Source: Promethearchaeia archaeon (GTDB lineage Archaea; Asgardarchaeota; Lokiarchaeia; Sigyniarchaeales; SOKP01). Taken from it: a stretch of DNA of 64,000 bases. The position numbers and the translations under genes were made by a program. Below the pieces are notes generated by a model, which ran no database searches, was not told the origin of the DNA, and was given only the letters and a program-made list of their open reading frames with translations. The first letter of the stretch is position 1. Each line of letters opens with the position of its first letter. Shown here one piece after another: positions 14,251 through 61,818 of the stretch. The stretch lies in assembly GCA_029856145.1 (NCBI GenBank), contig JAHQWK010000016.1, positions 1 through 64,000 of the forward strand. Reading direction: 5' to 3'.

Positions 14251-14357
14251 TGGCGGGCTATAGGGGAATCGAACCCCTGACCTTTCTTTTTAAGGGAGAT
14301 CTTCCCATAAATGTCAGGTTAAAAGCCTGCTGCGCTACCTGCCTGCGCCAATAGCCC
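14251..14357 (-). tRNA. tRNA-Lys(UUU) with 30-nt non-canonical intron at about 44/45 (14283-14312); CCA encoded
   Basis: Acceptor GGGCUAU/AUAGCCC, anticodon loop CUUUUAA, T-arm AGGGG-UUCGAUU-CCCCU; hairpin insert at the start of the variable loop. Confidence 0.9.
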
Positions 14358-15576: not shown

Positions 15577-15666
15577 GCCTCTGTTGCTTAGTGGTATAGC
15601 GTCAGATTCGTATTTAAATATAGATGAAAAATCTGAAGATCGGGGGTTCAAATCCCCCCAGAGGCT
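15577..15666 (+). tRNA. tRNA-Thr(CGU) with canonical 37/38 intron of 18 nt (15613-15630)
   Basis: Acceptor GCCUCUG/CAGAGGC, anticodon stem UCAGA/UCUGA, central helix UUCG/UGAA, bulges UA|U and AA|A. Confidence 0.92.
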
Positions 15667-15670
15667 CTAT

Positions 15671-28293: not shown

Positions 28294-29766
28294 TTATCCC
28301 TTTACTACACCTATTGGAACTAGTCTTACTATTTTTTCAACGATTCCAAGATCTTGGCTGACCTGAACAACTTGATCTATATCTTTATATGCACCAGGGG
28401 CCTCTTCAGCGATTATCTTCATCGAAGCAGCTCGTATCATGATACCTTGTTTACTTAAATTGTCTTTAACTCGCTCTCCCCAATATTTCTTAGTAGCTTT
28501 TGTTCTAGACATTACTCTTCCAGCACCATGCGCTGTAGAACCAAATGATAGATCCATTGCATTCTTTTTACCAACACAGAGATAAGATGCAGAACCCATC
28601 GTTCCTGGGATTAATACAGGTTGTCCTATAGATTTATACTCAGGCGGTAGATCAGGATGATTTGGCGGAAATGCTCTTGTAGCACCTTTTCTATGAACAT
28701 TTAATTTCATTTTTTTACCATCAATTTCATGTTCTTCTATTTTTAAAATATTATGGCAAACTCCATAGATTAAATGTAAACCTAAAGTGTCTATATCCTT
28801 TCTTAAGGTATTCTGAAAGGACTCTCTTAACCAATGCGTAATTAATTGACGGTTGGTAAATCCAAAATTAGCTGCACATGCCATTTGTTTTAGATAGTTC
28901 TGTGCTTCAGGTTTATTTGCTGGAACACATGCTAATTCTCTATCAGGAACTTTTATATTGTATTTTTTCATTGCTTGTTCGATATTGCGCAAAGAATCTG
29001 TACATACTTGATGTCCAAGAGCTCTGCTCCCTGTATGAACCATAACAGTAACTTGATTCTTCTCATGTATTCCTAAAGTTTTAGCAATACTTTGATTATA
29101 AATTTCATTAACTTTTTGTATTTCTAGAAAGTGATTTCCACTTCCCAAAGAACCAAGTTGTTTTATAGCACGTTGTTTTGCTTTTTGTGAAACTAAACTA
29201 GCATCTGCATCCTTTAAACATCCATTTTCTTCTAAATGTTTAAGGTCCTCATCAAAAGCATAATCGTTGTCTACTGCCCATTTCACACCATTATTTAAAA
29301 CTTTATCTAATTCTGAATAGCTTATATTTAGTTTACCTTTCGATCCCAAACCTGAAGGAATATTATCAAAGATTGTATTCAACAGATTAGGAAGCACACT
29401 CTTAATATCTTTAAGAAATAAATTTGATCTTAATAATCTTACACCACAATTAATATCATATCCAACACCCCCGGGAGAAATCATTCCATTCTCTGCGTCT
29501 GTCCCAGCAACACCCCCGATACAAAAACCATATCCCTGATGAGCATCTGAAAGAGCAATAGCATGTTTTTGTATCCCAGGTAAACAGGCAACATTACAAA
29601 TTTGATCTAGAGTCCTATCTTGCTTTATTTTCTCTAAAATATATTCATTAGCATAAATTTTTACGGGGACCCTCATCTGAAATTTTTCGATATTTCCTTT
29701 AACCCGTGTCATTAATGTCTTTGGAGGAATCTCATAGATATTGTCATCAATTTTATTAACATTCAT
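28294..29766 (-). CDS. rtcB: RNA-splicing ligase RtcB
   Basis: DAHQGYGF, GVGYDINCG, GSGNHFLE, HTGSR, HRKGAT, HGAGR. Confidence 0.98.
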   Translation of the reverse strand: MNVNKIDDNIYEIPPKTLMTRVKGNIEKFQMRVPVKIYANEYILEKIKQDRTLDQICNVACLPGIQKHAIALSDAHQGYGFCIGGVAGTDAENGMISPGGVGYDINCGVRLLRSNLFLKDIKSVLPNLLNTIFDNIPSGLGSKGKLNISYSELDKVLNNGVKWAVDNDYAFDEDLKHLEENGCLKDADASLVSQKAKQRAIKQLGSLGSGNHFLEIQKVNEIYNQSIAKTLGIHEKNQVTVMVHTGSRALGHQVCTDSLRNIEQAMKKYNIKVPDRELACVPANKPEAQNYLKQMACAANFGFTNRQLITHWLRESFQNTLRKDIDTLGLHLIYGVCHNILKIEEHEIDGKKMKLNVHRKGATRAFPPNHPDLPPEYKSIGQPVLIPGTMGSASYLCVGKKNAMDLSFGSTAHGAGRVMSRTKATKKYWGERVKDNLSKQGIMIRAASMKIIAEEAPGAYKDIDQVVQVSQDLGIVEKIVRLVPIGVVKG

Positions 29767-40580: not shown

Positions 40581-41030
40581 ATGTGTGCTGAAGAATTTGC
40601 AAGCTTCTTAGATAGTACTCGAAAAGCACCATTGGAAGAAAAACTAAATGCTTTTGGTGATATTATTGAAAAGATAATGTCTATTATCTTACGCATCCCT
40701 GATTTGGTTGATCAATCCTTAGGCTCAGTAAATGAGAAAGTATCAAATTTACAAAACCAAATTAATTCTCTGAATAGTCAAATAACATCAGGTCAATTAA
40801 GATCTGGAGGTGCTCCAGCAACAGCGACTCTTGCACCAGCTGGTCCAGCGGCAGCACGTGCACCCGGAGGTCCACCTCCACCACCACCTAGTGGTCCACC
40901 CGGAGGTCCACCCGGAGGTCCAGGTCCTGCCCCTACTCCTGCCCGTCCGGCAAGTCCAGTATCACTTAGAGGGGCAATTATGGGAGAATTAAAGAGTCTA
41001 TTTGCTAAGCGTAAGACCCAATCTGGATAA
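40581..41030 (+). CDS. Coiled-coil, polyproline and C-terminal WH2-like helix protein
   Basis: GGPPPPPPSGPPGGPPGGPGP tract followed by SLRGAIMGELKSLFAKRK. Confidence 0.7.
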   Translation: MCAEEFASFLDSTRKAPLEEKLNAFGDIIEKIMSIILRIPDLVDQSLGSVNEKVSNLQNQINSLNSQITSGQLRSGGAPATATLAPAGPAAARAPGGPPPPPPSGPPGGPPGGPGPAPTPARPASPVSLRGAIMGELKSLFAKRKTQSG

Positions 41031-41310: not shown

Positions 41311-41921
41311 TTAGAACTCTAAAAATCCAGGATCATCAAAAATATCATCAATTTTTCGTTCTTTCTTTATCTTTGTATCCGTTTCAGCAAATAAGGATTC
41401 TTCATCAGTTCTAACCCCCCGTTCTAGTTCTTCAGTATCACGTTTTAATAATGCATCTTTTTCAAGCTGTTTATATTTTTCCGATCGTATTTTCCAATTA
41501 TCAACTTCATCCAAATTAACATTATCTTCTTCTAATAATATCGCTGCTTTTGTTTTACATAGATCTGATAAAATAGAATAGGATAGAATAATATCTCCCC
41601 ACTCATTATCTTCTTTTAAACTAACAATCCGTTTTTCTAATCTTAGTAATTCTTGGTCTGCATAATATATATCAATAAAATCCCCAAAAGCATCAACGGG
41701 TTCTGAGATTGAATTTACTAATACTTCTTTTGTTAAATCACAATTTCCACATTTTACAGTAGCAAAGGCACCTTTCTTCTTAATATCAGTGACTTTTACG
41801 CTTTTTTCACCGCATTCCATGAAAAATTGGAAATCAATTATTTTCATTCTGGACAGGTGAAAATTTTTGGTACTCTCTTAACTCTTTTTGGTGATACTTG
41901 TTTACGTTTTCTTCTTCCCAT
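41311..41921 (-). CDS. elf1: Transcription elongation factor Elf1 with C-terminal extension; two exons (41847-41921, 41311-41814), 192 aa after splicing
   Basis: Exon 1 MGRRKRKQVSPKRVKRVPKIFTCPE; exon 2 CGEKSVKV...CGNC...EPVDAFGDFID. Confidence 0.9.
41815..41846 (-). other. 32-nt BHB intron in elf1 mRNA
   Basis: Exon helix UUUUCACC/GGUGAAAA, central CCAG/AUGG, bulges AA|U and AA|U, inner hairpin GAAAA-U-AAUUG/CAAU-UUUUC. Confidence 0.85.
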
Positions 41922-42120
41922 TATTATCACTACGCAAATATGTAATTAAATTATCTGTCATCATTTAGAATAAAGAAAAGGAAAACTAAAATATTTTTGC
42001 TTTTATGTGAAAACATTTGAAGGCTTTTAGCAAAATTTTTTAGGAATGATTAATTATTTCACTTACTTTTTTTTACTGAAATAATTTAGCAATTTTAATA
42101 ATGGTGAGTGGATTTTAGGT

Positions 42121-61112: not shown

Positions 61113-61818
61113 GGATGAAATAGAACTAATATGTGGGATAGACGAGGCTGGTAGAATTTAATTCGCTTCGAATTATATGTTAAAAGGCTCTGTCTTAGGC
61201 CCTATGGTTTTATGTGGAATTTGTTTCAATAAATCAAAAATAAACTTATTATCTGAAATAGGTGTTAAAGACTCAAAAAAATTATCTCCTATAAGGAGGA
61301 ATAAATTAGCTAATCTCTTGAAAAATTACTGCCACTCATATAAAATCGTTATAATTAGTCCTCAGGAGATTGATGAGAGAGAAAGTAAAAAAATTACATT
61401 GAATCGACTTGAAGAATTAAAAATGGCAGAGATTATCAACACACTGAAACCAGATGTCATTTTTATAGATGCTGTGGATGTAAATGAAGAAAGATTTGGA
61501 CATTCTATAAAAAAATTATTGAATTATATTCCTAAAAAAATAATTTCTGAACATAAGGCTGATGACATATATCCAATAGTTTCAGCAGGTTCTATTATGG
61601 CTAAAGTTAAAAGAGATTCTCTAATTGAAGAACTTCATAAAAAATATGGAAATTTTGGTTCAGGATACCCTTCTGATATTAGAACAATTGAATTTCTTAG
61701 AAATTATGTAAAAAATAATAAGAAACCACCTAAAATCGCAAGGAAATCATGGAATACAACTAAAAGAATAATAAATGAAGAGTTATCTACAAAAAAAATA
61801 ACTGATTTTCTTAATTAA
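61090..61818 (+). CDS. rnhB: Ribonuclease HII; two exons (61090-61154, 61185-61818), about 232 aa after splicing; start codon uncertain
   Basis: Spliced ICGIDEAGRGSVLGPMV, VKDSKKLS, IDAVD, HKADD, GSGYPSD, RKSW, PIP-like KITDF. Confidence 0.93.
61155..61184 (+). other. 30-nt BHB intron in rnhB mRNA
   Basis: Central UGGU/GUUA, bulges AG|A and AA|A, hairpin AUUUAAUUCG-CUU-CGAAUUAUAU; contains in-frame TAA. Confidence 0.85.

What the first reader, a model, noticed from the sequence alone, without database searches (positions are those of the whole stretch)
41815..41846. Second mRNA intron: 32-nt BHB insert splitting the Elf1 zinc knuckle
Seen on the minus strand: MGRRKRK...IFTCPE is followed at once by TGA AAA TAA, and CGEKSV resumes 32 nt later in another frame. 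The structure is an 8-bp exon helix UUUUCACC/GGUGAAAA plus GU/GC, a central CCAG/AUGG (3 pairs + G.A), bulges AA|U and AA|U, and an inner hairpin. Cutting after bulge nucleotide 2 yields TGT CCA GAA|TGC GGT = CPECG. A competing register (UCCA/UGGA) would remove 34 nt and be out of frame, so splice-site choice matters. A GAATG direct repeat flanks the insert. Inference: splicing is obligatory for Elf1 expression.
Basis: partly seen in the sequence, partly recalled or inferred. Interest (0 to 1): 0.93.

Follow-up and report, generated by a model that had tools for sequence, protein, structure and literature searches.

The report
tRNA-type mini-intron in Asgard elf1 gene
The only gene for transcription elongation factor Elf1 in this Loki-type Asgard archaeon is split by a 32-base insert shaped like the introns that archaea cut out of tRNAs, so its mRNA very probably has to be spliced, which the papers I could search show inside an archaeal coding sequence only for cbf5.

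Summary
Confirmed. A 32-nt insert (41815-41846, minus strand) splits the genome's single elf1 inside its first zinc-binding CxxC; removal restores CPE|CG. Homologous, diverged 31-32-nt inserts sit at the same codon boundary in 19 of 54 same-genus genomes. The in-frame bulge-helix-bulge register holds in 25 of 26 distinct junctions, with exon-intron compensatory changes. Exon-helix codons are fixed in 24/25 intron-bearing versus 3/45 intronless genes, and dN/dS is about 0.1. [quoted passage not shown] Best reading: an EndA/RtcB-spliced pre-mRNA intron of the cbf5 kind. No RNA evidence was obtained. Caveats: in this strain alone a perfect out-of-frame (34-nt) register folds about 2.3 kcal/mol better, and an AUG overlapping the stop opens a truncated 178-aa frame. 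Added here: near-identical intronless haplotypes show that the intron lies in a patch of about 180 nt, probably imported by recombination. This scan already noted such Asgard mRNA introns in this and other genomes; I found no paper on them.

The parts
41847..41921 (-). elf1 exon 1 (25 codons: basic N-terminal tail and first Cys, ends CPE)
   Evidence: PF05129 positions 1-26; dN/dS 0.08 in intron-bearing sister pairs
41815..41846 (-). 32-nt BHB intron; starts with UGA stop; inner hairpin
41311..41814 (-). elf1 exon 2 (167 codons + stop): three remaining Cys, rest of the Zn ribbon, long acidic C-terminal extension
41853..41863 (-). 5' arm of the exon-exon helix h (UUUUCACC, bulged U, GU)
   Evidence: helix 1 99% paired; TTC 25/25, ACC 24/25 in intron-bearing genes
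41804..41813 (-). 3' arm of the exon-exon helix h (GC GGUGAAAA)
   Evidence: GGT GAA 25/25
41846..41852 (-). 5' strand of the central helix (CCAG) and 5' bulge AA|U; predicted 5' cut between 41847 and 41846
   Evidence: Pro wobble base pairs as A-U 12, U-A 4, G-C 1 of 17
41814..41820 (-). 3' strand of the central helix (AUGG) and 3' bulge AA|U; predicted 3' cut between 41815 and 41814
41814..41847 (-). competing perfect BHB register (UCCA/UGGA); 34-nt excision would give a 26-aa product ending CPER-stop; 4/4 only in this strain
41845..41849 (-). GAATG direct repeat, copy 1 (holds the AUG at 41847 that overlaps the UGA stop)
41813..41817 (-). GAATG direct repeat, copy 2
41806..41982 (-). inferred recombination patch (5' leader, exon 1, intron, junction) that differs from near-identical intronless haplotypes; ends approximate
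28297..29604 (-). rtcB RNA ligase (extent of the Pfam PF01139 match), the likely ligase
   Evidence: E 1e-170, no stops
61155..61184 (+). second coding intron of the window: 30-nt BHB insert in rnhB (GIDEAG|R), same system

Best explanation
The insert is a true pre-mRNA intron of the tRNA type. The elf1 transcript folds into a relaxed helix-bulge-helix-bulge-helix (h-B-H-B-h') with an 8+2-bp exon helix, a four-position central helix closed by G.A, two 3-nt bulges and an intron hairpin. The cell's (alpha-beta)2 splicing endonuclease EndA cuts after the second base of each bulge and RtcB joins the exons, giving the 192-aa Elf1 with an intact C23-x2-C26 knuckle. Shown: the insert, the single gene copy, the conserved fold, covariation, selection on both exons, and the presence of the enzymes. 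Inferred: cleavage, ligation and the register actually used. Separately inferred (about 0.7): this strain's allele received the intron in a patch of about 180 nt by homologous recombination from another lineage of the genus.
For: Only elf1 match in a 97%-complete genome. Same-site inserts in 19/54 genus genomes. In-frame register best of 49 tested: central 3/4 in 25/26, and all three helices in 21/26 versus 4/26 for the next register. Covariation: 92% of cells paired, 7 pairs with two-sided change, score 0.22 against 0.12 for shuffled and 0.07 or less for slid controls; the exon-intron pair at the Pro wobble is A-U/U-A/G-C and never broken. Exon-helix codons fixed in 24/25 intron-bearing versus 3/45 intronless genes; 10 of 12 independent pairs go the same way and none the other, p 0.002. 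dN/dS 0.10 in 8 intron-bearing sister pairs, 0.08 in exon 1. The 31-nt relatives cannot use this strain's AUG overlap, and some have a stop in the exon-2 frame inside the insert, so splicing is the one rescue common to all. EndA alpha matches Aeropyrum EndA best and carries the specific loop with its Lys and the Tyr/His/Lys triad; a second EndA paralogue and RtcB are present. Nine more coding inserts with in-frame BHB registers in this genome, several in single-copy core genes. A terminal G.A in the central helix alternates with G-C in the eIF2-gamma intron of relatives, so it appears tolerated. Precedent: cbf5 (PMC2738675).
Against: No spliced RNA or excised intron was observed. In this strain the out-of-frame register is a perfect 4/4 BHB and about 2.3 kcal/mol better in ViennaRNA, which does not score G.A. 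No elf1 intron has a 4/4 in-frame central helix, and RNAalifold does not predict the central helix. A 178-aa frame from the overlapping AUG exists here. Changes private to this genome are 12.5 synonymous and 9.5 non-synonymous, about twice the group's dN/dS. Related sequences are not independent, so shuffle counts are not probabilities.
Confidence: 0.82

Rival explanations
1. The element is an EndA intron in the genus, but in this strain a C-to-U change at the Cys23 wobble created a perfect out-of-frame BHB, so most transcripts lose 34 nt and give a 26-aa dead peptide; the allele is weak or null.
For: The competing register is the MFE, 4/4 only here and 2.3 kcal/mol better. Intronless alleles exist in near-identical haplotypes. 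Yeast ELF1 is non-essential (my own knowledge), so a weak allele may be tolerated.
Against: The allele is unchanged in six other contigs, and exon 2 has no lesion. Terminal G.A is seen in the eIF2-gamma, pyrG and cspA introns. The energy model ignores G.A pairing and enzyme binding.
Confidence: 0.09
2. No splicing: the mRNA is read as two peptides by stop and restart at the AUGA overlap (25 aa + 178 aa), or by a -1 frameshift through the open 11-codon insert.
For: AUG at 41847 overlaps the UGA and is in frame with exon 2; a second AUG lies two codons before Cys26. Gene callers annotate the 178-aa form.
Against: It works only for a 32-nt insert; 24 of 26 distinct junctions are 31 nt. The product lacks Cys23 and the basic tail that aligns with solved Elf1 structures. 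It does not explain exon-intron covariation or the fixed exon helix.
Confidence: 0.05
3. A disabling insertion (pseudogene) or an assembly artefact.
For: The insert carries in-frame stops; many relatives lack it.
Against: Diverged homologous inserts in 19 genomes; identical in independent contigs; dN/dS about 0.1 in intron-bearing lineages.
Confidence: 0.02
4. The RNA is processed but not to make Elf1: EndA cuts it for decay, or a nuclease other than EndA removes the hairpin.
For: Yeast TSEN cleaves mRNAs for decay (PMC10485636). The central helix is never perfect.
Against: The conserved register restores the frame exactly, and there is no second elf1. The geometry matches EndA's known substrate.
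Confidence: 0.02

Closest known systems
BHB intron in the cbf5 pre-mRNA of Crenarchaeota (Desulfurococcales, Sulfolobales; PMC2738675)
   Same: Short intron inside a coding sequence; relaxed BHB with predicted cuts between bulge bases 2 and 3; host has hetero-oligomeric EndA; patchy presence among relatives; variable interior with conserved borders.
   Different: Different lineage (Asgard, Promethearchaeota/Lokiarchaeia) and gene. At least ten coding genes in one genome rather than one. At least 12-15 state changes within one genus and signs of short-patch recombination. cbf5 splicing was shown by cDNA and enzyme assays; this one is not.
46-nt BHB intron of Haloferax volcanii HVO_1309 (PMC7714728; PMC10485636)
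   Same: mRNA substrate of archaeal EndA, small hairpin intron.
   Different: Lies in the 5' UTR and does not break a reading frame; homodimeric EndA.
Non-canonical tRNA introns of Asgard archaea (bioRxiv 10.64898/2026.10.13.758758)
   Same: Similar size and BHB borders, same enzymes expected, repeated gains, not yet shown spliced in an Asgard cell.
   Different: That study covers tRNA genes only (no occurrence of 'mRNA' or 'cbf5') and leaves the route of arrival open; here the host is a protein gene and flanking exon codons travel with the intron.
Elf1/ELOF1 transcription elongation factor (PF05129; NF011482; PMC7289017)
   Same: Basic N-terminal tail, four-cysteine Zn ribbon and acidic tail; aligns with solved yeast and human Elf1.
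   Different: Needs splicing to be whole; C-terminal extension of about 110 aa. Its function in archaea is untested.

Membership tests
EndA-spliced BHB pre-mRNA introns (cbf5 type) | Interrupts a protein-coding frame; precise removal restores the conserved protein | tested here: met
   the spliced product is 192 aa and collinear with intronless orthologues
EndA-spliced BHB pre-mRNA introns (cbf5 type) | Two 3-nt bulges on opposite strands around a 4-position central helix, cuts after bulge base 2 (relaxed forms allowed) | tested here: met
   relaxed form, 3 of 4 pairs in 25/26
EndA-spliced BHB pre-mRNA introns (cbf5 type) | Strict canonical motif (4 of 4 central pairs) in the frame-restoring register | tested here: not met
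   0 of 26; not required for the cbf5 type, whose motifs are described as unconventional (PMC2738675)
EndA-spliced BHB pre-mRNA introns (cbf5 type) | Flanking exon helix h and intron helix h' | tested here: met
EndA-spliced BHB pre-mRNA introns (cbf5 type) | Host encodes hetero-oligomeric EndA with the specific (CSL/L1) loop, and RtcB | tested here: met
   (by sequence; oligomeric state inferred)
EndA-spliced BHB pre-mRNA introns (cbf5 type) | Spliced mRNA or circular intron detected | tested here: inconclusive
   no read data could be laid
EndA-spliced BHB pre-mRNA introns (cbf5 type) | Cleavage by EndA in vitro at the predicted sites | not testable with these tools
   needs biochemistry
Group I, group II or spliceosomal introns | Catalytic RNA core of hundreds of bases, or GU-AG borders | tested here: not met
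   32 nt, borders UG...AA; no Rfam intron family in the window
Miniature transposon with target-site duplication | Several copies in the genome | tested here: not met
   no other copy with fewer than 8 mismatches
Miniature transposon with target-site duplication | Exact direct repeat at the borders in all carriers | tested here: not met
   5 nt here but imperfect in L009, L060, L087, L226; 0-5 nt in other introns of this genome
Elf1 family (PF05129) | Zn ribbon with two CxxC knuckles after a basic tail | tested here: met
   (met only after splicing)

The most novel reading that the evidence does not exclude
Lokiarchaeia run genome-wide tRNA-type splicing of core mRNAs, and the intron moves as a cassette: the insert plus the synonymous exon bases that build its helix spread between lineages by short-patch homologous recombination (from about 20 to about 180 nt of flank). 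The always-imperfect central helix, and in this strain a competing out-of-frame register, let EndA activity set the level of a transcription elongation factor.
Probability: 0.3. Interest if true: 0.92.

Novelty: new variant of a known kind. Interest (0 to 1): 0.8.

Why it matters
The papers I could search record one EndA-spliced intron inside an archaeal coding sequence (cbf5) and one in a 5' UTR. If ten or more core genes of a close prokaryotic relative of eukaryotes need protein-catalysed splicing, genes in pieces predate the spliceosome in this lineage by an unrelated chemistry, and annotation of Asgard genomes is truncating core proteins (the 178-aa Elf1 call here). The near-identical haplotypes with and without the intron bear on what a 2026 preprint calls the central open problem, how such introns arrive: they point to recombination for spread, though not for first origin. 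The competing register gives a natural test of how EndA picks its sites.

Tried and rejected
RNA data: the look-up of sequencing runs listed no RNA holder, only four 'probably DNA' runs with small shares; this says nothing about expression. Looking for spliced forms among database proteins: full-length near-identical proteins P0001, P0002, P0004, P0085, P0067 and P0033 all come from contigs with different synonymous bases at the junction, so they are intronless alleles and not spliced copies. A structure-only genome scan was no better than frame-shifted controls (189 vs 156 and 194); true cases were recognised by motif and family match, so ten introns is a floor and not a census. A homology census against 400 kb of G005 and the elf1 neighbourhoods recovered only elf1. 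Two scan candidates (C11 111974, C3 66556) were not supported. Automatic tRNA-intron extraction was too noisy to use. Motif searches for the rps3 and Zn-ribbon leads returned nothing, so they are not counted. Copying from another site in this genome: not found. Sigma-70 promoter scan: at chance level and not suited to archaea. Nine literature searches found no report of Asgard coding introns; subscription journals are largely not covered.

Full report
Observation. The minus strand has an ATG at 41921 followed by 25 codons ending FTCPE, then TGA AAA TAA; CGEKSV resumes at 41814. The two parts match adjacent portions of the Elf1 Zn-ribbon profile, and removing 41846-41815 gives a 192-aa protein collinear with relatives. 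This is the only elf1 match in the genome (G000, 3.55 Mb, 97% complete). Named relatives are Promethearchaeota (Loki-type Asgard) MAGs. The junction folds well (z -3.13).

Distribution. Of 54 genomes of the genus, 19 carry an insert at exactly this codon boundary; none of the 81 genomes of other genera in the family matched this pattern, which depends on the local peptide. Across all loci there are 26 distinct junctions: 24 with 31 nt and 2 with 32 nt. Intronless orthologues read CPECG or CPDCG without a gap. On a tree built without the junction codons, presence needs 15 changes, 12 forced by well-supported branches. Recombination (below) means that this tree is an average.

Structure. Of 49 cut registers tested, only the frame-restoring one holds across the set: 3 of 4 central pairs in 25/26, with all three helices in 21/26. 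The competing register reaches 3 or more pairs in 5/26 and 4/4 only in this strain. On 17 distinct rows, 92% of cells pair, seven pairs change on both sides, and the pair between the exon's Pro wobble base and the intron is A-U (12), U-A (4) or G-C (1), never broken. That pair is shared by both registers; what separates them is the end pair, G-C in most relatives and G.A here. No junction has a perfect in-frame central helix, and the mismatch falls at position 1, 2 or 4. RNAalifold recovers the exon and intron helices but leaves the centre open.

Selection. The synonymous codons that build the exon helix (TTC ACC ... GGT GAA) are fixed in 24/25 intron-bearing genes and 3/45 intronless ones; 10 of 12 independent pairs agree and none disagree. 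Eight sister pairs that both carry the intron have dN/dS 0.10 overall and 0.08 in exon 1. A dead gene would not show this.

Machinery and system. The genome has two EndA paralogues. One aligns best with Aeropyrum EndA alpha, with the specific loop and its Lys and the catalytic Tyr, His and Lys; PMC5829648 reports this loop in Asgard (alpha-beta)2 EndA and links it to relaxed substrates. RtcB lies in this window. I verified by sequence nine more coding inserts of 28-31 nt with in-frame BHB registers: rnhB, eIF2-gamma, uppS, rpl11, cspA, an acyltransferase, nfu, pyrG and mvk. rnhB, nfu, pyrG and mvk were leads from earlier scan notes. eIF2-gamma, uppS, rpl11 and rnhB are single-copy. The eIF2-gamma insert occurs in 24 genomes of 7 genera and the rnhB insert in 36 (leaving out one unrelated match). 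In eIF2-gamma the end pair alternates between G-C and G.A, so G.A at that position appears compatible with productive splicing of an essential gene.

Strain-specific problems. Here the Cys23 codon is TGT (TGC in 23/25), which makes UCCA/UGGA a perfect BHB. It is the MFE and about 2.3 kcal/mol better than the in-frame fold in a model that cannot score G.A; cutting it removes 34 nt and ends the protein at CPER-stop. The extra base also puts an AUG overlapping the stop in frame with exon 2 (178 aa, lacking Cys23 and the basic tail). Neither feature is shared by most relatives, so neither explains the element, but the share of correctly spliced mRNA in this strain is open.

Mobility. Database proteins 98-99% identical to this Elf1 come from contigs that match the window at about 99.8% for up to 10 kb downstream yet lack the intron and differ densely over the leader, exon 1 and junction. 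The window's leader and exon 1 are 86-95% identical to a distant intron-bearing clade (L074, L078, L080, L086, L148) and 59-89% to its exon-2 relatives, whereas the intronless exon 1 agrees with exon 2. Trees of the two segments conflict (AU p 0.016 and 0.0001; groups were chosen after seeing identities). The simplest reading is a recent import of about 180 nt (41982-41806) holding the intron. The intron sequence itself resembles other hosts (L072, L226, L087), so the donor is unsampled. In a second case, L160 and L301 are identical for 194 nt upstream and 457 nt downstream but differ by the intron and five synonymous bases within 20 nt of it. L150 holds this strain's junction without the intron (45+30 nt identical), either a precise loss or a pre-insertion allele. 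Direction is inferred, not shown, and repeated loss also fits part of the tree.

Mechanism. Shown: anatomy, conservation, covariation, selection, enzymes. Inferred: EndA cuts at AA|U and AA|U, RtcB ligates, 192-aa Elf1 results (0.82). Rivals: mis-splicing in this strain (0.09), restart or frameshift (0.05), dead insert or artefact (0.02), cleavage for decay or by another enzyme (0.02). No RNA evidence was obtained.

Known systems and novelty. It works like the crenarchaeal cbf5 intron (PMC2738675) and meets every sequence-level test for that class except a strict 4/4 helix, which cbf5 introns often lack too; the RNA-level tests are open. PMC7714728 and PMC10485636 list only cbf5 and the HVO_1309 leader as spliced archaeal mRNAs; the 2026 Asgard preprint treats tRNA genes only. 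I found no paper on Asgard coding introns, within the limits of the library. This scan noted the same kind of intron in other Asgard genomes, one note claiming RNA-derived support that I did not check. Verdict: a real feature; a new variant of a known kind by lineage, scale and apparent mobility; interest 0.8.

Noticed in passing
window 61155-61184 (+): 30-nt BHB insert with an in-frame stop in the RNase HII catalytic motif; present in 36 family genomes.
   Followed up: yes
G000 C5:34200-34229 (+), L253: 30-nt insert with stops in the P-loop of single-copy eIF2-gamma; in 24 genomes of 7 genera, mostly 29 nt.
   Followed up: yes
G000 C28:14741-14768 (-), C3:195586-195615 (-), C6:11598-11627 (-), C32:34945-34974 (+), C10:33334-33363 (+), C23:64787-64816 (-), C3:203065-203095 (+): Further BHB inserts in rpl11, uppS, cspA, an acyltransferase, nfu, pyrG and mvk.
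   Followed up: partly
window 28297-29604 (-): rtcB RNA ligase lies on the same contig, 12 kb from elf1.
   Followed up: partly
window 14251-14357 (-) and 15577-15667 (+): Two intron-containing tRNA genes (Rfam tRNA hits). By eye the first is tRNA-Lys with an insert of about 30 nt beyond the anticodon arm; the second has an 18-nt insert at the canonical 37/38 site and anticodon CGT.
   Followed up: partly
G000 C2 near 191778 (+): tRNA-Arg(GCG) with a 30-nt 4/4 BHB intron in the T loop.
   Followed up: no
L196 1-3000; L282 1-280: A haplotype with elf1 exon 2 near-identical to the window carries a version of the neighbouring eight-gene operon (window 42121 onward) only about 70% identical, suggesting whole-operon replacement by recombination.
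   Followed up: partly
window 41311-41690 (-): Loki Elf1 has an acidic C-terminal extension of about 110 aa, conserved in this order (dN/dS about 0.08) and missing from several same-class relatives.
   Followed up: no
L011/L049 (G011 C7:29687-30121), L044 (G006 C183): Some relatives have a second, divergent elf1-like gene; none was found in this genome.
   Followed up: no
L007, L012, L017, L020, L026, L282 elf1 start: Many relatives start elf1 with TTG, GTG or an ATA/ATC-like codon in place of ATG.
   Followed up: no
window 40581-41030 (+): 149-aa polyproline protein converging on elf1, preceded by a 211-aa coiled-coil gene; earlier notes suggest a WH2/BAR-like pair.
   Followed up: no
G000 C8:12915-13007 (-): ARAGORN calls a tRNA-Sec.
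   Followed up: no
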